Assembly: GCA_022868165.1 (NCBI GenBank)
Contig: JALHYA010000004.1
Coordinates: 16,457-80,456 of the forward strand
Reading direction: 5' to 3'
Length of the DNA stretch: 64,000 nt
Origin: Patescibacteria group bacterium
GTDB lineage: Bacteria; Patescibacteriota; Microgenomatia; UBA8517
The notes beneath the pieces are model-generated. The model worked only from the letters and a program-made list of their open reading frames with translations, did not search any database and was not told the origin of the DNA. The stretch's first letter is position 1, and each line of letters starts with the position of its first letter. Of the stretch, positions 31,123 through 40,835 are shown in pieces. The position numbers and the translations under genes are program-made.

Positions 31123-31641
31123 ATGAATAAGCTTCTTTATATTCTATTTGGTATAGTATTTGTCCTTGCTACTGTTTTAGGGGTGTTGTATGAAAGACGG
31201 GGAGGCTTGGTATTTTTGAGTAAAGACAAAATAAACTTCATAAGTAGTAAGAGCGGATTTGAGTGGGAAGTAAACGAAGATTTTGTGCGTTCGCTCGAAG
31301 AGTTGATTAGGACGAAAGAGGGCTCCGAATCGAAGAAAGTATTGGTAGTTCTCTCCTCCGAATTCAAACAAACACCCGAAGGTGGGGGATATGGAGAGCT
31401 TGAACCGTTTGTTTATGCAGAGTGGAGTTCTTCTGGAAATCGGGATACTTTAAATATCTACCTTGATGGCAATATTTGGAAGCAAATAGAAGAAAAGAAG
31501 AGAAATACCCCTGTGTCTTATCTGATATCTCAACAAATTCTGCAACACTTTGAGATGACCGATGAACCTTTAGAGAAGATTACTGAAGATATTTTTAACA
31601 ATGGACCAAAAATTTCTATTAAGGAAAGTTCAATTTTTTAA
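31123..31641 (+). CDS. Hypothetical N-terminally anchored protein
   Basis: 172 aa, N-terminal TM. Confidence 0.4.
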   Translation: MNKLLYILFGIVFVLATVLGVLYERRGGLVFLSKDKINFISSKSGFEWEVNEDFVRSLEELIRTKEGSESKKVLVVLSSEFKQTPEGGGYGELEPFVYAEWSSSGNRDTLNIYLDGNIWKQIEEKKRNTPVSYLISQQILQHFEMTDEPLEKITEDIFNNGPKISIKESSIF

Positions 31642-31648
31642 ATTTGCC

Positions 31649-33265
31649 ATGAGGAAACTAATATTGCTAATCTTTTCAGGTTTGATCTTTATTGCATTAT
31701 TTGTTGTCCCCAAAAACATTCAGGCTGCTTGTACTGGTAATACGAAATGCGCACCTTATAGTGGAGGCCATTGTTGGTGGGAGGAGAGTATGTACTATAC
31801 AGTAGGCTGTACCGCCTCGCCACAGTGCGAGGGGAATCCCTGTAATAAGGCCATTTGCCTAGTATCCGATACCTGTGCTTATGTCTGTAATCCTGGTGCA
31901 ACAACTTGTGGTCCTTGTTCCAAAACTTGTGGAGGAGGAATAAGTCTCTGTACGAATGGGTGTAGTTCGTGGAATGTGAATTGTAATACCCAGGCTTGTC
32001 CTCCGCCTGGCTGTCTTTGTGGTAACTGGGTGGACGGCGCCTGCGGTGTTGGTTTATGCGGCTCCAGCGAGCGGCAGCAAACAAGAACCTGTGTCCCTGC
32101 CGCCTGTGCCGCCGAAACCCAATGCGTTGTCGATCCAACTTGTACACTTCCTTCCAGTTGCACCGTTGATCTTCTACCGGCAACAGCCACAACATCAGTG
32201 GGCTCAAGCGTAACGCTTACGGCTTCGGTTACGGTAGGAAGTGGAACCGTTGACCAGGTAAATTTCACTTCTGCCAATACGGGGATTCTTACGGTAAGCC
32301 CGGCTTCCGACAGCACCGTGACGTATCAAACGCAGGCAACAGGGGTGGCCATTGGTTCAACTACCGTATCCACAGAGGTGATTATGGGCGGGGTTTCAAC
32401 TTGCGCTGATAGTGCTGGGTTAGGCGGAGGCACAGTTGTTAATGTGACTTCCGCAGGCCCTTGGTGGCAGGTGATTGATGCGGATATTACAACAAATGGA
32501 AGCATAACATCCAGCATTCCTGGAACTTGCGCCTTGCCGGGATGTAATCCCTTGTTTGATTTGGTCGGCCCCGGAGGCTATCCTGGTGTGCCTGCTTACG
32601 GGGGAACGGCAAGTTTTAGTACAGGCACGGTTTCTACTATTGGATGGCTGGCAAACACTTTAAGTCTAACTTCCAATAACCGGCAATATGCATATGCCTG
32701 GTTTAAGAGACTGATTCCTTCGGATGTAACTATGAATGAGATAACTTCACCTTCCATTGACGGCACCGAGCTTTCTTCAGGGGGAACGGCCAGTGGGGGA
32801 TACTATTATTACCGTTATGACGGCTCAAGCGGGCTGGATTTAACCATAAACACCGATGCTTCGTTGGGCACAAGAAAGGTAATTTTGCTGGTGGACGGGG
32901 CAGATTTGAACCTAAACGCAAGGATTAACTTCACAAAGGGACAGGGATTCTTTATGGCTTTTGTCGGCAAAACCCTGCTGGGGGCCAAGGGTAACATCAA
33001 TGTTTCTTCAACGCTTGGCGGAGGAGTCACACCCCATCTTGAAGGATTGTATGAAGCCGATGGCGCTTTCCATTCAGGAGCAGGAACAACACAGCTTTAT
33101 ATTCGCGGGTCTGTTGCGGCATATGGGGGAATGAATTTGGAACGGAATTTGACCGATAATTCCGCCACCCCGGCCGAAGTCTTTGAATACGCGCCCGATT
33201 TAATCTTCACCTATCCCTATAAACTTAGGGAAAGAAGGATCTTCTGGCAAGAAGTAGCCCCATAG
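31649..33265 (+). CDS. Cys-rich secreted adhesin-like protein (TSP1-like Cys-knot repeats, Ig-like domain, beta-helix-like C-terminus)
   Basis: Signal anchor 'MRKLILLIFSGLIFIALFVVPKNIQA'; 'CGPCSKTCGGGISLCTNGCSSW' resembles thrombospondin type-1 repeat cores; 'LTASVTVGSGTVDQVNFTSANTGILTVSP' Big-2-like. Its last 119 bp are duplicated at 39509-39627. Confidence 0.55.
   Translation: MRKLILLIFSGLIFIALFVVPKNIQAACTGNTKCAPYSGGHCWWEESMYYTVGCTASPQCEGNPCNKAICLVSDTCAYVCNPGATTCGPCSKTCGGGISLCTNGCSSWNVNCNTQACPPPGCLCGNWVDGACGVGLCGSSERQQTRTCVPAACAAETQCVVDPTCTLPSSCTVDLLPATATTSVGSSVTLTASVTVGSGTVDQVNFTSANTGILTVSPASDSTVTYQTQATGVAIGSTTVSTEVIMGGVSTCADSAGLGGGTVVNVTSAGPWWQVIDADITTNGSITSSIPGTCALPGCNPLFDLVGPGGYPGVPAYGGTASFSTGTVSTIGWLANTLSLTSNNRQYAYAWFKRLIPSDVTMNEITSPSIDGTELSSGGTASGGYYYYRYDGSSGLDLTINTDASLGTRKVILLVDGADLNLNARINFTKGQGFFMAFVGKTLLGAKGNINVSSTLGGGVTPHLEGLYEADGAFHSGAGTTQLYIRGSVAAYGGMNLERNLTDNSATPAEVFEYAPDLIFTYPYKLRERRIFWQEVAP
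33147..33265 (+). repeat. 119-bp direct repeat, copy 1 (3' end of the adhesin-like CDS incl. stop) = putative attL
   Basis: 100% identical to 39509-39627. Confidence 0.85.
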
Positions 33266-33306: not shown

Positions 33307-33336
33307 TTGGACGATAGGCGAGTTGGGCCTTATAAT
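33307..33336 (+). promoter_or_regulatory. Sigma70-like promoter: TTGGAC (33307-33312) - 18 bp - TATAAT (33331-33336) driving the greA-like/adk operon
   Basis: Good match to the -35/-10 consensus with 18-bp spacer, 20 nt upstream of ATG 33357. Confidence 0.5.
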
Positions 33337-33356: not shown

Positions 33357-33923
33357 ATGGTAGACATCGACAGACTCAGGACATTGCCTGGAGAGGAATT
33401 GGTAAGGCTCGCTTTAAAAGGTGAGGTTATTCTAGCCAGCGAAGAAGGCATTGGAATTCTTGATGGCCAAATCGACCGAACAAAAAATGAAGCAGCTTCG
33501 CTTAAGCTAAGGCTAGGAGAAGTCGCTCGCCAGGACCCAGATTTGCCGGAAAATATAGAATTTAAGGAAATCAAAACCAAGTTACAGTTTGAGATCCCCA
33601 GAAAATTAGACGACTTGGGAAGGAAAAAAGCAAAAACAATAGTCTTTCAAGAAAACCAGGATGGAGCTATCCGTTTTGGAACTCTATTTGAAGCTCGGAT
33701 AGAGTATCCCACTGAGACTACCTCTGGGGTATTTGTTTTTTTGGGACCCATAGAAGCAGCCGCCGGAAAAATTGAGGCCAAACCTGAGGCCCAAGTTATT
33801 TCTTACCTGTCTGTAGTCGGAAAGGCTTTATGGGGTTATGATCCAAATAGTGGTAAACCGGTTCAGTTTGAGACGCCAGCTGGCAAGGCTACTTGTATTG
33901 TTAAAAAAGTTTTCAAGCCGTAA
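33357..33923 (+). CDS. GreA/GreB-family transcript cleavage factor homolog with divergent N-terminal coiled coil
   Basis: C-terminal FKBP-like domain: 'ISYLSVVGKALWGYDPNSGKPVQFETPAGKATCIVKKV' vs GreA '[36 protein letters not shown]'. Confidence 0.55.
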   Translation: MVDIDRLRTLPGEELVRLALKGEVILASEEGIGILDGQIDRTKNEAASLKLRLGEVARQDPDLPENIEFKEIKTKLQFEIPRKLDDLGRKKAKTIVFQENQDGAIRFGTLFEARIEYPTETTSGVFVFLGPIEAAAGKIEAKPEAQVISYLSVVGKALWGYDPNSGKPVQFETPAGKATCIVKKVFKP

Positions 33924-34585
33924 TGATCGAGTCCAAAGAAAGTTCATATCTTTTGTATGGTCCTCCCGCAAGTGGTAAAACTGCACTTGCCCTCGAATTA
34001 AGCAGGAGGATTGCCAAGGAGTACATTTCAGTTGGCGAGCTTACTCGTAGGGAAATCGAATTAGGAACACCTAGGGGTAAAAGACTTCAGAGGTGTTTAG
34101 ACGAAGTTACCGAATATCCAATAGAGTTAATTACAGGATTGGTAGAGGAGAGCATTGTTGCTTGTATGTCGGCGGGCGAGAATTTCATTTTAGATGGTTT
34201 TCCTAAATATGCCCAAGAGGCTCGAGCGTTCGTAAAACTATTAGAAAAACACAGGATTCTCCTAGATGCAGCAATTGTAATTGACCTACCCGTTGAAGGA
34301 GCTTTTGTGCGAGTTCTTAACAGAAGAATTTGTGTTTCCTGTCTAGCGCAAACAGAAGATGGCGGACAAATATGTCCGCAATGTGGAGATGCCCTTACTA
34401 TAAGAGACGACGATATCCCACCCATATTTAAAAGAAGGTATAATGACTATAAGGACTCAATAGACGAAACACTTAGAATTATCGGACCATTTTGTAAGAG
34501 GATAATCCACATACAGGGCTCACAAAGCAAAGAAGATTTATTTAATTTGCTGTATATAAAATTATCCCTTTCCATGCCCGAGTAG
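33923..34585 (+). CDS. adk: Adenylate kinase-like NMP kinase with Zn-binding LID
   Basis: P-loop 'GPPASGKT', 'DGFPK', LID 'CVSCLAQTEDGGQICPQCG...RDDD'. Confidence 0.6.
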   Translation: MIESKESSYLLYGPPASGKTALALELSRRIAKEYISVGELTRREIELGTPRGKRLQRCLDEVTEYPIELITGLVEESIVACMSAGENFILDGFPKYAQEARAFVKLLEKHRILLDAAIVIDLPVEGAFVRVLNRRICVSCLAQTEDGGQICPQCGDALTIRDDDIPPIFKRRYNDYKDSIDETLRIIGPFCKRIIHIQGSQSKEDLFNLLYIKLSLSMPE

Positions 34586-34651
34586 CTCAGCAGAGAGAGC
34601 GGTTGCGTTGTAAGCAACAGGTCGATGGTTCAAGTCCATCCTCGGGCTCCA
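34576..34651 (+). tRNA. tRNA-Thr (anticodon TGT), CCA encoded
   Basis: Cloverleaf: acceptor gcccgag/ctcgggc, anticodon stem gttgc/gcaac with loop gtTGTaa, T-arm gatgg-ttcaagt-ccatc; 76 nt. Confidence 0.85.
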
Positions 34652-34658
34652 ACAGTTT

Positions 34659-35576
34659 ATGAAAAATAAGGCCATTTTTACTTGGAAAGAGATCGTAGAA
34701 CTTTTAACTGGAAATGGTCACGCGGTTTCTTGTGCAGACATGAGTTCTCTGATTACATACTCCAGACAGCGTGGAATAGGCACGGCTATTTCTTATCAAA
34801 AAACCTCGTACTCAGAAGAAGGCTTGAAAAATCTTAAACGACTTGTTCGGTGGTGGATTTATCTAGACGATTTCACTATCCCCGAGTGGAGAAACGCTAT
34901 TATTACAAAAAAGATTCAAAAAATAGTTGTCGGCTCGTTAAAAAATAACTTACCTCTGACTTTGTACGCAGTATTCTGTCCTTCCTACAAAAAAGGGGTT
35001 GGAGTATCTGGATATACTGGGAAATTAGGAATGCATACCAAAAGGTATATTCAAAAAATGTCAGAATTCGTTCTTTCCACGGAAGATGCGGGCTTGAAAG
35101 TAAAAGGGACAGCCTTTTTTAGCGACCTTCTTTTAGAAAATTACAAAAGACTTGTCGGAACGAACTATAAAAAGGATCTCGCGTCCAACTTTCGAGAATT
35201 CAAAAAAGATATTAAAAAAAACAGTAAAGGAAAAATAAAAAGTGCTCTTTTGTCATCTATCATGGCCCTTAAGCGTGATGTCGGGGAGAAAGGGATAAAG
35301 ACTGGCCCTTTGGGGATATCAGGTGAGCTTTTTAATACGGTCTTTAAGAGGAATAGAGTTTTTTATACAAACCAGCTTGGCTGGTCGGAGCCCATGGTAA
35401 AAGAAAGAACGGAGGTCTTGGCCAGAAGTTACGCAAAACTTGGGGAATACTTTAGGAAGAAATATCCCGAGGGAATTATGTTTTGGGTAGAGAGTGCTTA
35501 CGAGAGGGGTGCCATGTATAGCGGAAACAATCAGCAGGACCCTATTCCAATAATTTATCCCAAAAAAGATGAATGA
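34659..35576 (+). CDS. Hypothetical protein (305 aa), first gene of a tightly packed 5-gene operon
   Basis: ORF with 8-bp overlap to the next gene; no recognisable motif. Confidence 0.45.
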   Translation: MKNKAIFTWKEIVELLTGNGHAVSCADMSSLITYSRQRGIGTAISYQKTSYSEEGLKNLKRLVRWWIYLDDFTIPEWRNAIITKKIQKIVVGSLKNNLPLTLYAVFCPSYKKGVGVSGYTGKLGMHTKRYIQKMSEFVLSTEDAGLKVKGTAFFSDLLLENYKRLVGTNYKKDLASNFREFKKDIKKNSKGKIKSALLSSIMALKRDVGEKGIKTGPLGISGELFNTVFKRNRVFYTNQLGWSEPMVKERTEVLARSYAKLGEYFRKKYPEGIMFWVESAYERGAMYSGNNQQDPIPIIYPKKDE

Positions 35577-36546
35577 CAATTCCAAAATAGAGGGGCTTCT
35601 AAGCAACTTGGAACTTGAGTGGTTTAGGCTGGGCCGAGATTTCCACCTCGATTTTGAATTTCTTACAAATCTTTACAGCAAGGAGAAAAAACATATTTTC
35701 GAACATAGCCCCTATCATGTACTCTCCTATTTACGATTCAAAAACCAGCTCTACGGTATTTCAGGCAGATTTGGTTCTCTAGTTTTGGTTTCGAGAAAAG
35801 ATGACAAATTTCTATTTACCCCTCGCATTGACGACTTTAAATCATTCGAGCTTTTTATCAAAGCAATTAAAAGGAGCCTCGGGGTTACCAAAATTGAAAT
35901 TCGGAACGTCAGTGAGCAATGGTTACAATCATTCCTGGTGAATGTATCAAATGTTGCGAAAAGGGGGATGTCTGTGAAAGAGCGCTCAAGGGAGGAGGCT
36001 ATCTATGATGTCGACCTGTTGTGCGAACTCCGCGGAAAAGATTTTGCAGGGATTAGACAATCCAGAAATAAGTTGTTAAACAGTGGAAGTATTCAGTTTA
36101 AGCCCTTTACTAAAATTTCCTTAAAGGACGGTGTAGGGGTCTTAAATAAATGGCAGAAAGTCCAAGGTTGGAAGTATGTTAAAGAGAGAATAGAGAAAGA
36201 GAAATATGTACTTGCGAGATTTTTTGATTTTTCTCGGTTAACAAAGAATGTATTGTGTGGGGTTGGCTATTATAAGGAAGTGCCTTTAAGTATTCTGGTT
36301 ATGCACCTTGTTCCAAACGGGGAAAAAAGCGGAACAATCTACCTACTTAAAGGAATAAACAGGCCTTCTGACGGGGGCACCCATGGAATATCAGATGCTA
36401 CTTACTGTTACGCTTTCCTTAGAGCTAAGGAGATGGGTATAAAATACCTCAATGATGGAGAATTGGGAACAGAAGAGGGTACAAGGAGACACAAACTCAA
36501 TTTTAAGCCGATAGAATTTCTCAAATCCTACGACGTTTTGCTCTAA
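35569..36546 (+). CDS. Hypothetical protein (325 aa); weak resemblance to GNAT-fold/aminoacyl-transferase-like (DUF2156-type) proteins
   Basis: ORF in operon; similarity judged by eye only. Confidence 0.4.
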   Translation: MNDNSKIEGLLSNLELEWFRLGRDFHLDFEFLTNLYSKEKKHIFEHSPYHVLSYLRFKNQLYGISGRFGSLVLVSRKDDKFLFTPRIDDFKSFELFIKAIKRSLGVTKIEIRNVSEQWLQSFLVNVSNVAKRGMSVKERSREEAIYDVDLLCELRGKDFAGIRQSRNKLLNSGSIQFKPFTKISLKDGVGVLNKWQKVQGWKYVKERIEKEKYVLARFFDFSRLTKNVLCGVGYYKEVPLSILVMHLVPNGEKSGTIYLLKGINRPSDGGTHGISDATYCYAFLRAKEMGIKYLNDGELGTEEGTRRHKLNFKPIEFLKSYDVLL

Positions 36547-36548
36547 AT

Positions 36549-37688
36549 ATGAAACAGCTAAGAACGAATGAGTTTTATAACGAGATCGAATTTGAAAAAA
36601 TTTTCCCCCCTCAACTTTATGAAAATTTCAACTCTGAATTGCCAGCACCACTAAATGGACGGACAACAATTTTCACCTTATATGGCAGAAATGCTCTGTA
36701 CCTTGGTGCGAGAGAGATGTTAAATTTGACTAAAAGAAACATTGTGCTAGTTCCGGCCTACTCGTGTGGGGATGAAATAGCTCCATTTGTAGCTTCCGGT
36801 TGCAGAATTAAAGCTTACCGTGTACACCCTGAAACCTTGCAGGTAGATAAAAAGGATATTGAGCAGAAATTGGATCAGAATGTTTCTGCGGTTTTGATAA
36901 CACACTATTTTGGTTTTCCTCAAAAGGAAATAGAAATTATAAAAAAGATATGTGGAGAAAGGGGAGTCGTACTTATTGAAGACTGTGCCCACGCTTTTGC
37001 GGGTGGATTTAAAAACATCCCCCTAGGTGCTTTTGGGGACTTTTCCATTTTTAGTTTAAGAAAGTTTTTGCCTATTCCGCATGGGGGAGCTCTGGTCATA
37101 AATAACACGAAGATAAACAGACCAAATCCCCTCCCGCCACCGGCTACGGCAGTAAATCTTGACCTTTTTCTTTATTCGGGTTACCAGGCTGGTATTTTTA
37201 CGCGAGGAATAAACATTCAGGACACACTCGATATGGTAGGTGTCAAACAAAAAGATTTACATGGCCCACGGCTAAAAGAGTTTGGTGGTTATAATTTAGG
37301 TCTTTCCAATGTTGCAAAAGTTCTAATCGCATTTATTGCAAAGCAGAAATTGTGGACAAAGAGAAGATCAAACTTTCTTTATTATTTGGACTTTTTCGAA
37401 AAGAATTCGCATAAATCGGTGCAACCGCTGTTTGAATTCCTTGAGAAAGGGGTAGTACCTTTATTTTTTCCTGTTCTAGTAAACGACTCTGAAGAGATAT
37501 ATAAAAGATTGAGAGACAAGGGCCTTTTTGCTGGACAACCATTCTGGTCTGATTCCCATACCTATTTCAACTGGGCTGATTTTTCGCCCTTAAACGAGCT
37601 GAAGAAGAAGGTTATGGTTTTGCCAGTGAATCATAGAGTCCATTATCGAGACTTAAAGCGTTTCCTTGAAGTTTCAGACTATAGGTAG
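36549..37688 (+). CDS. DegT/DnrJ/EryC1/StrS-family PLP-dependent aminotransferase-like protein
   Basis: 'VPAYSCGDEIAPFVASGCRIKAYRV...VSAVLITHYFGFPQKEIEIIKKICGERGVVLIEDCAHAFAG' matches the DegT-family core. Confidence 0.6.
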   Translation: MKQLRTNEFYNEIEFEKIFPPQLYENFNSELPAPLNGRTTIFTLYGRNALYLGAREMLNLTKRNIVLVPAYSCGDEIAPFVASGCRIKAYRVHPETLQVDKKDIEQKLDQNVSAVLITHYFGFPQKEIEIIKKICGERGVVLIEDCAHAFAGGFKNIPLGAFGDFSIFSLRKFLPIPHGGALVINNTKINRPNPLPPPATAVNLDLFLYSGYQAGIFTRGINIQDTLDMVGVKQKDLHGPRLKEFGGYNLGLSNVAKVLIAFIAKQKLWTKRRSNFLYYLDFFEKNSHKSVQPLFEFLEKGVVPLFFPVLVNDSEEIYKRLRDKGLFAGQPFWSDSHTYFNWADFSPLNELKKKVMVLPVNHRVHYRDLKRFLEVSDYR

Positions 37689-37700
37689 TATAATTCTTTT

Positions 37701-38978
37701 ATGTGTAGAGACATGTATATACTGTTTGGGCCTCCTGGAAGTGGTAAAACTGTCCAGGCGAGATTTTTGTCCCAAAGGTTGAAACTGGACGGTATTTCAT
37801 GGGGTGACATCTACTGGGGTACAAAGTTTAACAAGAAGTACAAGGGACAAATTGCTGTAATAAAGAAGGAGGCTATCTCTGACAGAACTCGCTCGAAGGA
37901 GATAGCAAAGATAATTGACAAGGAAATTGGCAGCCTTACTTTACGAAATAAAGGCGGGAAGCGGGGGTTGGTTTTGGACGGATTTCCTAGAAGATTGGGA
38001 GAGGCTAGACTCCTTCTTAAAATATGCAAGAAAAGGGGATACAGAATAAAATCCTTGATTCGCATAAATCCATCTTTAGATTTTTCAGCGAACCGCTTCA
38101 AAAAAAGGCTTTTTTGTGAAAAATGCCGCGCTTATTACGATGAACTCAATCTACCCAAGAAGAAGGGTCGTTGTGATTTAGACGGCGGAAGGCTATCTCA
38201 TATGGATATTTCAAAGGAGAGTGTGGCGAAAGAATTTAACACCTATTTAGACGAATGTCTCGAAACATTTGAATATCTCAAAGATTATGCAGACATTTTT
38301 TTTGATGTAACTGGCGACGATGAAGATATGGTTATTTCTTCAAATATTCTTATTAAAATAAAGAATAGAATTCGAGAAAATTATAGTCTCTTTTCAAGAA
38401 AGCCCTCTACATCTATTATGACTAAGTACGGTAGTTTTAAGCTTGTACCCTATCAATCACGACTAGATTATTCCTACCACTTAGCGCTTGTAAAGGGAAA
38501 CGTTAGAGATGGAAAACGAGTACTGGTTAGGGTTCATTCCTCTTGCATAACCGGAGATATTTTTGGGTCCTATATGTGTGATTGCGGAGAACAACTAGAG
38601 GAATCCATGAAAAGAATCGAGCACGAAAAGAGGGGAGTTTTAATATATTTATTTCAGGAAGGCAGGGGCATAAACATGATTAACAAAATTCAAGCTTACA
38701 GGTTACAACGCAATGGGTATGACACAGTGGATGCTAATGAAGCCATCGGTTTTCCAGCCGAAATGAGGGACTACCGGTTAGTGAAGGAGGTTTTGGAGGA
38801 TTTGGGGGTAAAAACAATTAGATTGTTGTCCAATAGTCCCGAGAAGATCAATAAACTTACAGACCAGGGAGTTATTATAGAAGAAATGGTTGGAGTCGAA
38901 GTAGAGCCTCGAAAGTGGAACAGAGGATACTTGCTTACAAAAAAGGAGAAAATGGGTCATAAGTTGGATGTTTCATAA
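37701..38978 (+). CDS. Fusion protein: N-terminal adenylate-kinase-like NMP kinase + C-terminal GTP cyclohydrolase II (RibA)
   Basis: N: 'FGPPGSGKT', 'DGFPRR', Cys LID 'CEKCRAYYDEL...RCDLDGG'. C: 'VRVHSSCITGDIFGSYMCDCGEQLEES...LFQEGRGINMINKIQAYRLQRNGYDTVDANEAIGFPAEMRDY...IRLLSNSPEKINKLTDQGV' aligns with RibA incl. Zn ligands C-x10-CxC and EGRG. Confidence 0.7.
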   Translation: MCRDMYILFGPPGSGKTVQARFLSQRLKLDGISWGDIYWGTKFNKKYKGQIAVIKKEAISDRTRSKEIAKIIDKEIGSLTLRNKGGKRGLVLDGFPRRLGEARLLLKICKKRGYRIKSLIRINPSLDFSANRFKKRLFCEKCRAYYDELNLPKKKGRCDLDGGRLSHMDISKESVAKEFNTYLDECLETFEYLKDYADIFFDVTGDDEDMVISSNILIKIKNRIRENYSLFSRKPSTSIMTKYGSFKLVPYQSRLDYSYHLALVKGNVRDGKRVLVRVHSSCITGDIFGSYMCDCGEQLEESMKRIEHEKRGVLIYLFQEGRGINMINKIQAYRLQRNGYDTVDANEAIGFPAEMRDYRLVKEVLEDLGVKTIRLLSNSPEKINKLTDQGVIIEEMVGVEVEPRKWNRGYLLTKKEKMGHKLDVS

Positions 38979-39507
38979 TAATATGAAAGTTGTTTTAGGG
39001 TCCACAAGTGATGATAAAAAAAGAATTGTAAAGGCAGCCCTGAAATCTCTTGGTGTAAAGGCTGTGATTGAGGGGGTTACTGTCTCTTCGGGGATAAGTG
39101 AGCAGCCTTTAGATAAAAAGACCACGATTTGCGGTGCAGTGAATCGGGCGGTAGAAGCCTTGAAAATTAAAACCGATTCGGACCTCGCTGTGGGGTTAGA
39201 GGGGGGCTTGGATCGAGTAAAAGATTCAGGCTTTTTTCTTGTGTGTGCGGCTGCTATATATGACAAAAGCGGAGGAATCTATCTGGGAACGAGCAGGAAA
39301 ATAAAACTTCCCAAAGAAGTATCTGAAAAAATAGAGGAGGGGGCATTTTTCGGAACGGTAATTAGAGAATATAGAAAGAAAGTAAGAAAAAATAAGGCAT
39401 TGTTTAATCTTTCAGACCAACTTATAACAAGAAATGTCCCTTTTTCAGAGGCAATACGAAACGCCTATAAATCTTTCAAAGAAGGTACACTCTATCAAAA
39501 GTTTTAG
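38968..39507 (+). CDS. YjjX-family non-canonical purine NTP phosphatase (ITPase/XTPase, DUF84)
   Basis: 'MKVVLGSTSDDKKRIVKAALKSLG....VSSGISEQPLDKKTTICGAVNRA' parallels YjjX '..[23 protein letters not shown]'; start may be Met at 38983. Confidence 0.55.
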   Translation: MFHNNMKVVLGSTSDDKKRIVKAALKSLGVKAVIEGVTVSSGISEQPLDKKTTICGAVNRAVEALKIKTDSDLAVGLEGGLDRVKDSGFFLVCAAAIYDKSGGIYLGTSRKIKLPKEVSEKIEEGAFFGTVIREYRKKVRKNKALFNLSDQLITRNVPFSEAIRNAYKSFKEGTLYQKF

Positions 39508-39508
39508 G

Positions 39509-39627
39509 ATTTGACCGATAATTCCGCCACCCCGGCCGAAGTCTTTGAATACGCGCCCGATTTAATCTTCACCTATCCCTATAAACTTAGGGAAAGAAGG
39601 ATCTTCTGGCAAGAAGTAGCCCCATAG
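39509..39627 (+). pseudogene. 119-bp direct repeat, copy 2: orphan 3' fragment (last 39 codons + stop) of the adhesin-like gene 31649-33265 = putative attR
   Basis: 100% identical to 33147-33265; an in-frame TAG two codons upstream, no start codon. Confidence 0.85.
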
Positions 39628-39629
39628 GT

Positions 39630-40835
39630 TTAGGCTGAATCGACAATCGTCATCTCCGCGTTAGCTGAAATCTTTTCCAAGGAAGCGGGTTTGTTGTTGA
39701 AAAAGGCATATGAGGCGATATATGCGGCGTTGTCCGTGCAGAGATTTGCGGGAGGAAATCGTAAATCAACTTTTAACTTTTCACTTTTCACTTTTAACTC
39801 AAATACTTGTCGAAGACGAGTATTAGCCGATACTCCTCCAGCTAAAAGAAGGGATTTGGGCTTGAATTTCTTTACTGCGTCCAGAGTCTTTTTAACTAAA
39901 ACGTCAACGATTGCCTCCTGTATTTCTGCTGCCAGCCTGGAAGTTAGAGGTGGGAAGCTTGAAGCTGGATGTAGATGTTGGAGTTTAGATTTATTCCAAC
40001 TTCTAACTTCTTTGTCCAGCTTCTCACCTCTATTTTCCAATTTCTCTGTTTCCCTAAGCACCGCTGTCTTAAGGCCCGAAAAACTGAAGTCAAAATTATC
40101 CTCATCAATCATCGGTCTGGGAAGTAGATTTAGTTGGAAGTGGGAGGCAGGAGGCTGGAAGTTCGCTGCGGCGGCGGCGATGGCTGGTCCTCCCGGGTAG
40201 GGAAGTCCCAAAAGACGGGCGGACTTGTCAAAAGCCTCGCCGGCCGCATCATCCCTTGTTCCTCCAATCCACTCTATTTTTCCCCGCCCGCCAGCGCTAC
40301 GCGCAAGCGTTGCGGGCGCGGCGTGGCCTTTCATCAGAACCAAATCCGTATGTCCTCCGGAAACAACCAGTGCCAGTGCCGGAAATTCCGGCCGACTATC
40401 CGTTAGCCAGTTGGCGTATATGTGTGCCACAAGATGGTTAACCGGAATAACAGGCTTTTTCCATAAATAGGAAAGGGTTTTGGCCGTTTCTACTCCGACC
40501 AAAAGGGAACCAATAAGGCCCGGCCCGACGGTTACGGCAATGGCGTCTATATTGGAAGATAGAAGATGGAGGTTTGAAGCTAGATTTTGATGTTGGATAT
40601 TAGATTTTTCCTCCAACTTCGAACTTCTAACTTCAGAGACAGTACTTAGTGCTTCGGAGATAACAGGAAGAACGCTGAGAACCTGCTGGCGTGCAGCCTG
40701 CTCCGGGATTACGCCGCCAAATTTGGCCTGCATTTCCGCGCTCGATGCAACAACATTGGAAAGAATTTTTGTTCCGTCTTCGACAACTGCCGCTGCAGTT
40801 TCATCACATGAGGTCTCTATCCCCAGAATTTTCAT
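39630..40835 (-). CDS. tsaD: tRNA N6-adenosine threonylcarbamoyltransferase TsaD carrying two in-frame low-complexity insertions derived from palindromic mini-repeats
   Basis: 'MKILGIETSCDETAAAVV', 'VTVGPGLIGSLLVG', 'LVVSGGHTDL', 'DFSFSGLKTAV' TsaD/Kae1 blocks; 401 aa vs ~340 typical; extra segments coincide with repeats at 39935-40030 and 40553-40636. Confidence 0.8.
   Translation of the reverse strand: MKILGIETSCDETAAAVVEDGTKILSNVVASSAEMQAKFGGVIPEQAARQQVLSVLPVISEALSTVSEVRSSKLEEKSNIQHQNLASNLHLLSSNIDAIAVTVGPGLIGSLLVGVETAKTLSYLWKKPVIPVNHLVAHIYANWLTDSRPEFPALALVVSGGHTDLVLMKGHAAPATLARSAGGRGKIEWIGGTRDDAAGEAFDKSARLLGLPYPGGPAIAAAAANFQPPASHFQLNLLPRPMIDEDNFDFSFSGLKTAVLRETEKLENRGEKLDKEVRSWNKSKLQHLHPASSFPPLTSRLAAEIQEAIVDVLVKKTLDAVKKFKPKSLLLAGGVSANTRLRQVFELKVKSEKLKVDLRFPPANLCTDNAAYIASYAFFNNKPASLEKISANAEMTIVDSA
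39935..40030. repeat. Palindromic mini-repeat (copy D) inserted in frame in tsaD
   Basis: ggaagttagaggtgggaagcttgaagctggat...tccaacttctaacttctttgtccagcttctcacctc; arms gaggtgggaagcttgaagctgga / tccagcttctcacctc. Confidence 0.7.
40553..40636. repeat. Palindromic mini-repeat (copy E) inserted in frame in tsaD
   Basis: gaagatagaagatggaggtttgaagctagattttgatgttggatattagatttttcctccaacttcgaacttctaacttc. Confidence 0.7.

What the first reader, a model, noticed from the sequence alone, without database searches (positions are those of the whole stretch)
33357..39507. Compact operon of nucleotide-processing enzymes with two unknown proteins: candidate undescribed modified-purine-nucleotide pathway
One promoter (TTGGAC-18-TATAAT at 33307) appears to drive a GreA-like factor, an Adk-like kinase, tRNA-Thr and five abutting or overlapping genes: two unknowns (305 and 325 aa), a DegT-family PLP aminotransferase, a kinase::GTP cyclohydrolase II fusion and a YjjX-type ITP/XTP 'house-cleaning' NTPase. 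GTP cyclohydrolase II opens the guanine imidazole ring and is the entry point to riboflavin and toxoflavin, yet no RibD/RibH/RibE partners are present. The pairing of nucleotide kinases, a purine-ring-modifying enzyme, an aminotransferase and an NTPase that normally removes non-canonical purine NTPs resembles the logic of antiviral nucleotide-analogue producers (kinase plus modifying enzyme plus self-protection). It could equally be a small-molecule or cofactor pathway. I do not know of this gene combination having been described.
Basis: partly seen in the sequence, partly recalled or inferred. Interest (0 to 1): 0.8.

Follow-up and report, generated by a model that had tools for sequence, protein, structure and literature searches.

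The report
tRNA-dependent GTP-derived nucleotide pathway operon
A tightly packed operon conserved in several groups of ultra-small (CPR) bacteria joins a GTP ring-opening enzyme, nucleotide kinases and a clean-up NTPase to its own odd tRNA gene, a new enzyme family shaped like a tRNA synthetase, and an aminoacyl-tRNA transferase. It probably builds an unknown amino-acid-decorated compound from GTP by a route nobody has described.

Summary

Three points change the picture.

1. The "325-aa unknown" is a DUF2156 tandem-GNAT aminoacyl-tRNA transferase.
2. The "305-aa unknown" founds a rare family with no Pfam or NCBIfam match. Its confident model has the class-I aaRS fold, closest to IsnA/PvcA isonitrile synthases, TyrRS and cyclodipeptide synthases. 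It occurs fused to DUF2156, adenylate kinase or NDK.
3. The "tRNA-Thr" is a conserved cluster part.
   - All 18 distinct cluster variants checked (Microgenomates, Paceibacterota, Saccharibacteria) carry the same tRNA-like gene just before the 305-aa gene.
   - Its acceptor, D and T arms are nearly frozen, and G35-U36 is invariant.
   - Its anticodon loop is mostly non-canonical.

Distant relatives of the 305-aa protein also follow a tRNA gene. The tRNA-Val-like ones sit with FolE2, CYTH, NDK and Nudix. The tRNA-Tyr ones sit with TyrRS or D-Tyr-tRNA deacylase.

Best reading: a tRNA-dependent pathway that tailors a GTP-cyclohydrolase product. The product is unknown. No rib partner genes and no defence-system matches were found. 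Nothing like it turned up in the literature searches.

The parts
33308..33336 (+). sigma-70-like promoter candidate (TGGACG-17-TATAAT)
   Evidence: and the sequence. It lies in the intergenic region about 20 nt before the first ATG. Promoter-like hits occur at chance density here, so it is only plausible.
33357..33923 (+). Divergent GreA-like factor (188 aa). Loosely associated, and probably not part of the chemistry.
   Evidence: PF01272 scores 22.2 bits, below the 26.9 cut-off. GreA NCBIfam models score about 25 bits against cut-offs of 139-167. The tip motif DLPENIEF resembles E. coli GreA DLKENAEY (read; the E. coli motif is from my memory). A GreA-like gene lies next to the cluster in most loci, but its side and strand vary.
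33923..34585 (+). Adk-like NMP kinase with a Zn lid (220 aa)
   Evidence: PF00406, E 7e-21. TIGR01351 scores 100.7 bits, below its 168 cut-off. The P-loop, the catalytic Arg/Asp residues and the four lid Cys are invariant in 15 orthologues. Its stop codon lies inside the tRNA gene.
34576..34651 (+). Cluster-specific tRNA(Thr)-like gene (anticodon TGT, CCA encoded)
   Evidence: ARAGORN and Rfam tRNA at 63.3 bits. An orthologous copy sits at the same place in every locus. The cloverleaf is 99.1% paired, and all 5 anticodon-stem pairs covary. Mean identity is 92% outside the anticodon arm and 51% inside it.
34659..35576 (+). New class-I-aaRS-fold protein family (305 aa; the 'unk305'), IsnA/PvcA-, TyrRS- and CDPS-like
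35569..36546 (+). Soluble DUF2156 tandem-GNAT aminoacyl-tRNA transferase (325 aa)
   Evidence: PF09924, 34 bits against a 27.5 cut-off. AF2 model pLDDT 94.9. Foldseek: 2hqy TM 0.77-0.83, MprF C-domains, the aa-tRNA-dependent peptide synthases Sbb17/Sba18, and FemX.
36549..37688 (+). DegT/DnrJ/EryC1-family PLP aminotransferase (379 aa)
   Evidence: PF01041, E 3e-21. D145, S169 and K172 are invariant in 12 orthologues.
37701..38978 (+). Adenylate-kinase-like domain (about residues 1-220) fused to GTP cyclohydrolase II (about residues 236-425)
   Evidence: The alignment to E. coli RibA (2bz0) keeps the Zn ligands Cys54/65/67, Tyr105 and Arg128. The fusion is found in about 90 CPR protein clusters.
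38968..39507 (+). DUF84/YjjX-type NTPase (179 aa)
   Evidence: PF01931, E 7e-28. TIGR00258 scores 73.5 bits, below its 117 cut-off. It overlaps the upstream gene by 11 nt. A GCHII::DUF84 fusion exists elsewhere (P0260).

Best explanation
The operon encodes a tRNA-dependent pathway that tailors a GTP-derived, ring-opened nucleotide.

Shown by homology:
- The GTP cyclohydrolase II domain should convert GTP to 2,5-diamino-6-ribosylamino-4(3H)-pyrimidinone 5'-phosphate (DARPP), formate and PPi.
- The two Adk-like kinases are catalytically intact NMP-kinase-type enzymes.
- ORF4 is an aminoacyl-tRNA transferase module.
- ORF5 is a PLP aminotransferase.
- ORF7 is a non-canonical purine NTPase.

Inferred:
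- The embedded tRNA-like RNA is charged with threonine by the cell's ThrRS. It keeps G1-C72, C2-G71, G5-C68, G35 and U36. In most lineages it serves mainly or only as a dedicated aminoacyl carrier, not as a decoder.
- The new aaRS-fold enzyme (unk305) binds this aminoacyl-tRNA. It passes the aminoacyl group through the invariant Cys107, a CDPS-like acyl-enzyme step, to an amine of the GTP-derived acceptor. The reactive 5-amino group of DARPP is the most likely target.
- The kinases either feed GTP to the cyclohydrolase or raise the product to the di- or triphosphate level.
- In most lineages DegT and DUF2156 add a second decoration: a keto group is transaminated, and the new amine is then aminoacylated from a tRNA.
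- The NTPase trims or polices the triphosphate forms.

The final product is unknown. It could be a cofactor-like molecule, a signal or a toxic analogue.
For: Conservation
- The order Adk-like / tRNA / unk305 / DUF2156 / DegT / Adk::GCHII / DUF84 recurs in Amesbacteria, Blackburnbacteria, Paceibacterota, Saccharibacteria and other CPR loci with unrelated flanks.

tRNA
- 18 distinct orthologues were read. 16 of them form alignment A3.
- G35-U36 is present in 18/18. G1-C72 and C2-G71 are present in all 16 A3 sequences.
- Only 4/18 have a canonical 7-nt loop with U33 and R37.
- 11 have a pyrimidine at position 37, 4 have A33, and 3 have 8-9-nt loops.
- The D loop lacks G18G19 in all.
- ARAGORN missed the Saccharibacteria copy, but the family covariance model scores it at 84.9 bits.

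unk305
- It has the aaRS/CDPS/IsnA fold.
- Rosetta-stone fusions: unk305::DUF2156 (5 representatives), unk305::Adk (3) and NDK::unk305 (1).
- Position 107 is Cys in the main family and Ser in the remote subfamily, with Pro108 invariant.
- The best local profile match aligns LYAVFCPS with TyrRS LYQGFDPS. Through the published AlbC/TyrRS superposition, this puts Cys107 at the CDPS nucleophile position. AlbC S37C remains active through a thioester (PMC3105412).

Remote relatives also follow a tRNA gene
- tRNA-Val-like, then FolE2, CYTH, unk305::Adk, NDK and Nudix.
- tRNA-Tyr, then an unk305-like gene, then TyrRS or D-Tyr-tRNA deacylase.

DUF2156
- It is the aa-tRNA transferase module, and aaRS::DUF2156 fusions are known to channel aa-tRNA (PMC7334510).
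- The ORF4 model matches MprF, FemX and the amide-forming Sbb17/Sba18.

GCHII
- The catalytic residues are intact.
Against: - There is no biochemical evidence. The acceptor, the amino acid and the order of steps are all inferred.
- The window's own tRNA copy has a canonical anticodon loop (GUUGUAA) and could simply be this organism's decoding tRNA-Thr(UGU). I could not count the other tRNA-Thr genes in these genomes.
- The closest full-length structural neighbours, IsnA/PvcA, use free amino acids and ribulose-5-phosphate, not tRNA.
- The Cys107-to-CDPS-Ser37 equivalence rests on a non-significant local alignment (probability 0.45%) plus a chain of published superpositions.
- L006/L013 lack DUF2156 and DegT, so those two steps are accessory.
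- Adk::GCHII also occurs in CPR clusters with no unk305 or tRNA (L036, L040). The GTP module therefore does not require tRNA chemistry.
- tRNA genes are often co-transcribed with protein genes.
Confidence: 0.5

Rival explanations
1. Self-contained producer of a toxic or antiviral nucleotide analogue. The kinases raise a modified purine to the NTP level, the GCH enzyme and tailoring enzymes alter it, and the NTPase protects the host. This concerns biological role and is compatible with tRNA-dependent chemistry.
For: - The Adk::GCHII hub is combined with different tailoring sets in different CPR lineages.
- The NTPase role is filled by unrelated folds: DUF84, Ham1, Nudix, plus CYTH. This is the modular pattern of secondary metabolism or defence.
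- The L033 variant lies next to a reverse transcriptase and an AAA_5 ATPase.
Against: - No PADLOC hit beyond generic P-loop noise, and no PHROG hits.
- The flanks are housekeeping genes such as nusB, rnc, rho, secA and tsaD.
- No mobile-element signature. The cluster is shared by three CPR superclades with very small genomes.
- The L033 reverse transcriptase scores best as a group II intron type, though below that model's cut-off.
Confidence: 0.15
2. Non-canonical cofactor pathway (flavin-, pterin- or deazaflavin-like) that starts from GTP. The tRNA gene is an ordinary co-transcribed tRNA-Thr, and unk305 is a small-molecule enzyme: an IsnA-like imine or retro-aldol enzyme, or an Amadori-type enzyme acting on the ribosylamine.
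For: - The GCHII domain passes the RibA equivalog threshold.
- FolE2, a pterin-forming cyclohydrolase, replaces GCHII in the Val-type variant.
- A PRAI (Amadori isomerase)-like domain accompanies Adk::GCHII in L040.
- The best full-length fold matches of unk305 are IsnA/PvcA, which act on a pentulose phosphate plus an amine.
- DegT could transaminate an Amadori ketone.
Against: - No RibD/RibB/RibH/RibE, FolB/K/P or QueD/E/C family appears in any annotated flank.
- This reading does not explain the degenerate anticodon loops with frozen acceptor, D and T arms.
- It does not explain the DUF2156 fusions.
- It does not explain the tRNA-Tyr with TyrRS or Dtd neighbourhoods of remote relatives.
Confidence: 0.15
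3. The tRNA-like RNA is the target, not the donor. unk305, an aaRS-like RNA-binding enzyme, attaches or inserts a GTP-derived moiety into the tRNA. Alternatively, unk305 itself charges the tRNA with a non-standard acyl group, which DUF2156 then transfers, as in the ErdS aaRS::DUF2156 arrangement.
For: - The aaRS::DUF2156 architecture has a precedent in ErdS.
- The N-G-U motif in the loop is invariant.
- GTP cyclohydrolases start the queuosine and archaeosine tRNA-base pathways (my knowledge).
- unk305 is strongly basic, pI 9.8.
Against: - The family consensus has no HIGH or KMSKS ATP-binding motif, so adenylate formation is unlikely.
- The cluster has no transglycosylase or QueD/E/C-like genes.
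- The other cluster proteins are equally basic.
Confidence: 0.12
4. Conserved synteny without a common function: housekeeping greA, adk and tRNA-Thr genes that happen to sit beside a small GTP-cyclohydrolase cluster.
For: GreA-like position and strand vary. CPR genomes are compact and many genes abut.
Against: - Domain fusions link unk305 to Adk, NDK and DUF2156, and link GCHII to Adk, CYTH and DUF84.
- The 10-nt overlap between the Adk-like ORF and the tRNA is conserved in all loci.
- The flanks differ between lineages while the block stays intact.
- The Adk-like proteins score below the adenylate-kinase equivalog cut-offs.
Confidence: 0.05

Closest known systems
Cyclodipeptide synthases (CDPS, e.g. 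AlbC, Rv2275)
   Different: There is no sequence similarity and no Pfam CDPS hit. unk305 is about 80 residues longer and is structurally closer to IsnA/PvcA and TyrRS. Its context is nucleotide enzymes rather than cyclodipeptide-tailoring oxidases. A dedicated tRNA gene is not a CDPS feature.
IsnA/PvcA/Dit1 isonitrile synthases
   Different: There is no PF05141 match and identity is about 10%. The cluster has no IsnB/PvcB Fe/2OG partner. IsnA enzymes are not known to need tRNA, kinases or GTP cyclohydrolase.
DUF2156 aminoacyl-tRNA transferases (MprF C-domain, ErdS, Sbb17/Sba18) and FemX
   Same: ORF4 passes the PF09924 threshold and has the tandem-GNAT fold. The unk305::DUF2156 fusions parallel the AspRS::DUF2156 architecture of ErdS, which channels aa-tRNA. 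DegT followed by DUF2156 parallels the pattern of an amino sugar then acylated from aa-tRNA, as in Sbb17/Sba18 (PDB titles).
   Different: ORF4 is soluble and has no flippase or membrane domain. No lipid or cell-wall genes are present. The partner domain is not a real aaRS. The subfamily is rare, with 33 clusters.
Non-proteinogenic tRNA-Gly of Staphylococcus aureus (FemXAB substrates)
   Same: These are dedicated tRNAs diverted from translation to a transferase, with sequence changes at positions that matter to the translation machinery (PMC9976931).
   Different: Here the degeneration is in the anticodon loop (U33, R37, loop size) and the D loop (no G18G19), not in the T stem. The gene is embedded in the operon and overlaps a protein-coding gene. 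The inferred identity is Thr (Val or Tyr in relatives).
Riboflavin and toxoflavin entry step (RibA/ToxB GTP cyclohydrolase II)
   Same: The GCHII domain passes the RibA model and keeps the catalytic residues. Toxoflavin biosynthesis also combines the GCHII product with an amino acid, glycine (my knowledge).
   Different: No RibD/ToxE, RibB/H/E or ToxA/C/D is present. The domain is fused to an NMP kinase and translationally coupled to an NTPase. FolE2 substitutes for it in a variant.
Aminonucleoside antibiotic logic (puromycin: NTP-level oxidation, DegT-type transamination, Nudix trimming, aminoacylation). From my knowledge, not tested here.
   Same: The combination of a DegT-family aminotransferase, an NTP pyrophosphatase and an aminoacylating enzyme acting on a purine nucleotide.
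   Different: The cluster has no dehydrogenase. Aminoacylation would depend on tRNA. The purine ring is opened by GCHII.

Membership tests
GTP cyclohydrolase II (RibA) | Sequence model above the curated threshold | tested here: met
   TIGR00505 scores 220.9 bits against a 205.85 cut-off. PF00925, E 7e-61.
GTP cyclohydrolase II (RibA) | Zn-binding Cys54/65/67, Tyr105 and Arg128 (E. coli numbering) | tested here: met
   The alignment to 2bz0 shows all five residues conserved. Residue roles are from my knowledge of RibA.
Riboflavin operon | RibD, RibB, RibH and RibE partners nearby | tested here: not met
   None in the operon, and none among the Pfam-annotated genes of the related loci. Whole genomes were not searched.
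DUF2156 / aminoacyl-tRNA transferase (MprF C-domain type) | PF09924 above the gathering score, and a tandem-GNAT fold | tested here: met
   34.0 bits against 27.5. Foldseek: 2hqy E 4e-15 with TM 0.77-0.83, 5vrv, 4v34, 6lv0, Sbb17 and FemX.
DUF2156 / aminoacyl-tRNA transferase (MprF C-domain type) | Positively charged alpha(+) helix between the two GNAT halves, which binds aa-tRNA | not tested
   A long helix is predicted between the halves (H182-199 and H205-224). Its charge and equivalence were not analysed.
MprF proper | N-terminal membrane flippase domain | tested here: not met
   ORF4 is 325 aa, all of it taken up by the tandem-GNAT fold.
IsnA/PvcA isonitrile synthase | Same overall fold | tested here: met
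IsnA/PvcA isonitrile synthase | Sequence family membership (PF05141 DIT1_PvcA) and a paired Fe/2OG oxygenase (IsnB/PvcB) | tested here: not met
   No Pfam hit at E<=0.1. No oxygenase in any locus.
Cyclodipeptide synthase | aaRS-like fold lacking the ATP motifs | tested here: met
Cyclodipeptide synthase | Catalytic Ser after the first strand, plus Tyr178, Glu182 and Tyr202 (AlbC numbering) | tested here: inconclusive
   An invariant Cys107 (Ser in the remote subfamily) sits at the inferred position. The other three residues could not be mapped without a structural alignment.
Class-I aminoacyl-tRNA synthetase (TyrRS/TrpRS) | HIGH and KMSKS ATP-binding signatures | tested here: not met
   The consensus reads FCPSYKKG...GxHTK and ESAYERG. 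No HxGH or KMSKS is present.
DegT/DnrJ/EryC1 aminotransferase | Pfam model, plus the PLP Lys and pyridine-binding Asp | tested here: met
   PF01041 scores 76.7 bits. K172 and D145 are invariant in 12 orthologues. Residue roles are assigned by analogy.
YjjX-type ITP/XTPase (DUF84) | Family model and equivalog threshold | tested here: inconclusive
   PF01931 scores 98 bits against a 25 cut-off, which is met. TIGR00258 scores 73.5 against 117.1, which is not met. Substrate specificity is unknown.
Adenylate kinase (housekeeping Adk) | Equivalog-level score | tested here: not met
   ORF2 scores 100.7 against the 168 cut-off of TIGR01351. The ORF6 N-terminal domain scores 80.7. The catalytic motifs are nevertheless intact.
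GreA/GreB transcript cleavage factor | Pfam and NCBIfam thresholds, and an acidic coiled-coil tip | tested here: inconclusive
   It scores below all thresholds. A DLPENIEF motif resembling the GreA tip can be read in the sequence.
Canonical elongator tRNA-Thr | Cloverleaf and tRNA covariance-model score | tested here: met
   RF00005 scores 63.3 bits in the window and 52-59 bits in the orthologues. 99.1% of pair cells are paired.
Canonical elongator tRNA-Thr | 7-nt anticodon loop with U33 and purine-37, and G18G19 in the D loop | tested here: not met
   The loop is canonical in the window copy but in only 4 of 18 orthologues. G18G19 is absent in all, including the window copy, where the D loop is AGCAGAGA.
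Known anti-phage defence systems | Match to PADLOC models | tested here: not met
   Only weak P-loop matches (E>=1e-3) for the two kinases, and nothing for the other five proteins.

The most novel reading that the evidence does not exclude
This is a previously unknown class of pathway. A genome-encoded, non-decoding tRNA(Thr)-like RNA serves as a dedicated aminoacyl carrier for a new TyrRS-derived enzyme family. That family is a third lineage beside CDPS and IsnA. It couples an amino acid to the ring-opened product of GTP cyclohydrolase and so creates a new type of amino-acid-bearing pyrimidine, pteridine or 8-substituted purine nucleotide. The kinases then raise this nucleotide to the NDP or NTP level. 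It would be a CPR-specific cofactor, signal or nucleotide analogue.
Probability: 0.35. Interest if true: 0.95.

Novelty: new variant of a known kind. Interest (0 to 1): 0.85.

Why it matters
CPR bacteria have tiny genomes and lack most biosynthesis. Even so, three of their major lineages keep this eight-part block intact, so the product is likely to matter for their biology.

If the model holds, it would add several things:
- A new aminoacyl-tRNA-using enzyme family that bridges TyrRS, cyclodipeptide synthases and isonitrile synthases.
- A second clear case, after S. aureus tRNA-Gly, of a tRNA retired from decoding to serve metabolism.
- An unknown GTP-derived metabolite.

It would also give a testable function to the widespread CPR kinase::GTP-cyclohydrolase-II fusions, which are currently annotated as riboflavin enzymes in organisms that have no riboflavin pathway nearby.

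Tried and rejected
- **Sequence searches of unk305.** Searches against Pfam, NCBIfam, PADLOC, PHROGs and PDB sequences gave nothing.
- **Profile comparison with TyrRS.** The hhalign of the family against a TyrRS was not significant (probability 0.45%). I used it only as a hint for register.
- **AFDB Foldseek.** The library was unavailable, so no AlphaFold-database neighbours were obtained.
- **A false literature lead.** A paper that seemed to link GCHII and DUF84 concerned DUF849 and was discarded.
- **Literature searches.** Searches for GCHII with Patescibacteria or CPR, with riboflavin, with aminoacyl-tRNA-dependent enzymes, and for PIsnA found nothing relevant.
- **Defence-island reading of L033.** The neighbouring reverse transcriptase scores best as a group II intron type, though below that model's cut-off. 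The cluster proteins have no PADLOC match.
- **Survey of species genomes.** 185,579 species genomes yielded only 4 loci, so taxonomic statistics are thin. Metagenome contigs gave 18 more.
- **Riboflavin reading.** Rejected for lack of any rib partner in the annotated flanks. Whole genomes could not be scanned.
- **The tRNA as an ordinary passenger.** Rejected because of the pattern of frozen arms with a free anticodon arm and the recurrence in remote subfamilies.
- **ARAGORN's 'tRNA-Glu(TTC)' call in Paceibacterota.** This is the same Thr-like family with a 9-nt loop (UUUCGUUAA), not a Glu tRNA.

Full report
**1. Observation**

Seven + strand genes lie between 33357 and 39507.

Their spacing is operon-like:
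- 1-nt overlap at 33923.
- 8-nt overlap at 35569-35576.
- 2-nt and 12-nt gaps further on.
- 11-nt overlap at 38968-38978.

ARAGORN and Rfam place a tRNA at 34576-34651.

- A weak GreA-like C-terminal domain, below threshold.
- An Adk-like kinase.
- A DegT-family aminotransferase.
- An Adk::GTP cyclohydrolase II fusion. The RibA model TIGR00505 scores above its cut-off.
- A DUF84/YjjX-type NTPase.

The GCHII domain aligns to E. coli RibA with the three zinc cysteines, Tyr105 and Arg128 intact. Ring opening of GTP to the diaminopyrimidine nucleotide DARPP is therefore the expected activity.

The promoter-like site at 33308-33336 exists. Such matches are no more frequent here than in shuffled sequence.

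**2. The second 'unknown' is an aminoacyl-tRNA transferase**

ORF4 (35569-36546) passes the Pfam threshold for LPG_synthase_C/DUF2156.
- Its model is confident, pLDDT 94.9.
- The model is a tandem GNAT that matches the DUF2156 protein 2hqy (TM 0.77-0.83), MprF C-terminal domains, FemX, and the aminoacyl-tRNA-dependent peptide synthases Sbb17/Sba18.
- DUF2156 is the established aminoacyl-tRNA transferase module, and fusions of an aaRS to it channel aa-tRNA (PMC7334510).
- ORF4 is soluble, so it is not MprF itself.

**3. The first 'unknown' founds a new family with a tRNA-synthetase fold**

ORF3 (34659-35576) has no match in Pfam, NCBIfam, PADLOC, PHROGs or PDB sequences.

The family is rare:
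- 35 clusters in the 5.8-billion-protein index.
- 106 hits in an exhaustive profile search of 1.84 billion representatives.
- 4 loci in 185,579 species genomes.

The AlphaFold model is confident, pLDDT 94.4.
- Foldseek ranks the IsnA-type enzymes PIsnA and PvcA first, over the whole length (TM about 0.57).
- The family consensus has no HIGH or KMSKS motif. Like CDPS and IsnA, it is not expected to make an adenylate.

The invariant motifs are FCPSYK, FSDLLLEN and ESAYERG.
- In a wider alignment Pro108 is invariant.
- Position 107 is Cys in the main family and Ser in the most remote subfamily.
- The best local profile match to a TyrRS aligns LYAVFCPS with LYQGFDPS. This match is not significant on its own.
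- The AlbC paper equates AlbC G35 with TyrRS-Mj G34, identifies S37 as the acyl-enzyme nucleophile, and shows that S37C is active through a thioester.
- Combining these, Cys107 falls at the CDPS nucleophile position. This step is my inference.

**4. Domain fusions tie the parts together**

- Relatives of ORF3 occur fused to DUF2156 (P0070, P0071, P0077, P0095, P0124), to adenylate kinase (P0086, P0087, P0112) and to NDP kinase (P0121).
- The Adk::GCHII fusion occurs in about 90 CPR protein clusters. These include Adk::GCHII::CYTH triple fusions and a GCHII::DUF84 fusion.
- ORF3, the kinases, the cyclohydrolase, the triphosphatase and DUF2156 are therefore functionally linked and not just neighbours.

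**5. The tRNA is a component, not a passenger**

The order Adk-like / tRNA / ORF3 / DUF2156 / DegT / Adk::GCHII / DUF84 recurs in more than 25 loci. These come from Amesbacteria, Blackburnbacteria, Paceibacterota, Saccharibacteria and unnamed CPR, and their flanks are unrelated.

The tRNA genes form one orthologous family.
- *Conserved arms.* The acceptor stem is GCCCGRG/CYCGGGC with U73, the D arm is TAGCTCAGMAGAGAGAGC, and the T arm is nearly fixed.
- *Identity.* Mean identity is 92% outside the anticodon arm. The neighbouring proteins are only about 45% identical. The anticodon arm is 51% identical, and all five of its stem pairs covary.
- *Invariant G35-U36.* The loop contains N-G-U (UGU, CGU or AGU, never GGU) in 18 of 18 distinct members.
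- *Canonical loops are rare.* Only 4 members (window, L014, L027, L031) have a canonical 7-nt loop with U33 and a purine at 37.
- *Loop defects.* 11 have a pyrimidine at 37, 4 have A33, and 3 have 8-9-nt loops. One of these ARAGORN mis-called as tRNA-Glu.
- *D loop.* It lacks the G18G19 pair in all members.
- *Saccharibacteria copy.* ARAGORN missed it, but a covariance model of the family scores it at 84.9 bits.

G1-C72, C2-G71, G5-C68, G35 and U36 are among the listed bacterial threonine identity elements (PMC9976931).

The pattern of a frozen body, preserved ThrRS determinants and a relaxed decoding loop is what one expects of a tRNA kept for aminoacylation and for protein partners other than the ribosome. 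The non-proteinogenic tRNA-Gly of S. aureus is the precedent.

The Adk-like ORF ends in a TAG that is U8-A9-G10 of the tRNA. This 10-nt overlap is conserved everywhere.

Caveat: the window's own copy has a canonical loop and an encoded CCA, so it may also decode.

**6. Remote relatives generalise the tRNA link**

- *Val-type variant (L008, L033).* A non-canonical tRNA-Val(UAC)-like gene precedes FolE2 (243 bits, above its cut-off), a CYTH triphosphatase-like protein, unk305::Adk, NDK and a Nudix hydrolase.
- *Another variant (L007).* It has a standalone GCHII followed by NDK::unk305.
- *Most remote subfamily.* The gene follows a tRNA-Tyr and is followed by TyrRS (L034/L035) or by D-Tyr-tRNA deacylase (L041).

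Across three subfamilies the protein is therefore always preceded by a tRNA gene. In the Tyr subfamily its other neighbours are aminoacyl-tRNA enzymes.

**7. What varies**

- L006/L013 lack DUF2156 and DegT and carry a GNAT acetyltransferase after DUF84. Those two genes are an accessory tailoring pair.
- GreA-like genes lie nearby in most loci, on either side and either strand. I treat the link as weak.
- Adk::GCHII also sits in clusters with no unk305 or tRNA:
  - Uhrbacteria: a methyltransferase and several unknowns.
  - L040: CYTH, a 1041-aa protein with a PRAI (Amadori isomerase)-like domain, a guanylate-kinase-like protein and a Ham1 XTP/dITPase.
- The constant module is therefore kinase(s), a GTP cyclohydrolase and a non-canonical purine NTPase. 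The NTPase role is filled by unrelated folds (DUF84, Ham1, Nudix) plus CYTH.

**8. Mechanism proposed**

Shown by homology:
- GTP is converted to DARPP, formate and PPi.
- The NMP-kinase domains are intact.
- The PLP aminotransferase keeps Lys172 and Asp145.
- ORF4 is an aa-tRNA transferase.

Inferred:
- ThrRS charges the cluster tRNA.
- unk305 takes the threonyl group, through Cys107, onto an amine of the GTP-derived acceptor.
- The kinases either supply GTP or phosphorylate the product. The Adk::GCHII fusion favours the first. The unk305::Adk and NDK::unk305 fusions favour the second.
- DegT and DUF2156 add a second, tRNA-derived aminoacyl group to a transaminated keto position. This parallels the amide-forming Sbb17/Sba18.
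- DUF84 trims or polices the triphosphates.

I put about 0.5 on the general statement, tRNA-dependent tailoring of a GTP-cyclohydrolase product. I put considerably less on any particular acceptor atom.

**9. Rivals**

- *Defence or toxin role.* It is compatible with the modular variation. No defence-model match supports it, and the flanks are housekeeping genes.
- *tRNA-independent cofactor pathway.* It fits the IsnA resemblance, the FolE2 substitution and the PRAI-like domain. It leaves the tRNA pattern, the DUF2156 fusions and the TyrRS/Dtd neighbourhoods unexplained.
- *The tRNA as target or as substrate of charging by unk305.* This remains possible, but the ATP motifs are absent.
- *Pure synteny.* The fusions contradict it.

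**10. Novelty and verdict**

Every protein except unk305 belongs to a known family, and tRNA-dependent small-molecule biosynthesis is a known kind of system. The following are new:
- The enzyme family itself.
- Its obligatory pairing with a tRNA gene.
- The degenerate, operon-embedded tRNA.
- The coupling to GTP cyclohydrolase, kinases and an NTPase.

No description was found in the searchable literature.

I rate it a new variant of a known kind. There is a substantial chance, about 0.35, that it is a categorically new pathway. Interest is high.

Noticed in passing
window 34576-34585 (and the same junction in L001-L031, L039): The Adk-like ORF's last codons and its TAG stop lie inside the tRNA's 5' acceptor strand; the TAG is U8-A9-G10. 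RNase P cleavage of a co-transcript would therefore remove the stop codon from the kinase mRNA. The 10-nt overlap is conserved in all loci, which suggests that kinase expression and tRNA maturation are coupled.
   Followed up: partly
L036/L037 7001-12952; L040 6352-14229: The Adk::GCHII hub, sometimes fused to CYTH, occurs in other CPR clusters with quite different partners. In Uhrbacteria these are a SAM methyltransferase, unknown proteins of 384, 242 and 210 aa, and an MBL-fold hydrolase. In L040 they are CYTH, an unknown 323-aa protein, a 1041-aa protein with a PRAI-like domain, a guanylate-kinase-like protein and a Ham1 XTP/dITPase. No unk305 or tRNA is present in either.
   Followed up: partly
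L033 6529-10399; L008 669-3638: A variant cluster carries a non-canonical tRNA-Val(UAC)-like gene (U37 and a T loop of UGCAAGA in L033), then FolE2, a CYTH protein, unk305::Adk, NDK and Nudix. In L033 it lies beside a reverse transcriptase that scores best as group II intron type (below that model's cut-off), an AAA_5 ATPase and a MazE-domain protein.
   Followed up: partly
L034 2537-4805; L035; L041 1-1260: The most remote unk305-like subfamily (about 323 aa, with Ser in place of Cys107) sits between a tRNA-Tyr(GUA) gene and either TyrRS or D-Tyr-tRNA(Tyr) deacylase. It may be an evolutionary intermediate between TyrRS and the IsnA and unk305 lineages. Its function is unknown.
   Followed up: partly
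L012 / L024 (contig JBBSXF010000060.1): One copy of the cluster lies in a MAG labelled Nanoarchaeota. The contig is only 4.5 kb and the genes are typical of the CPR copies, so mis-binning is likely.
   Followed up: no
window 31601-33265 and 39630-40835: A 554-aa cysteine-rich protein with an N-terminal hydrophobic segment lies immediately upstream of the operon. Immediately downstream, on the opposite strand, is an ORF I read as TsaD, the tRNA t6A37 enzyme. It is 401 aa and appears to carry an internal insertion. TsaD is not a neighbour in other loci.
   Followed up: no
window 34001-40000: The operon has slightly lower G+C (0.40) than the adjacent 2-kb bins (0.44-0.48).
   Followed up: no
L038/L039 1360-3455: The Saccharibacteria version of the cluster is preceded by two GreA_GreB-domain genes (157 and 171 aa), separated by a gene for an unknown protein of about 300 aa.
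   Followed up: no
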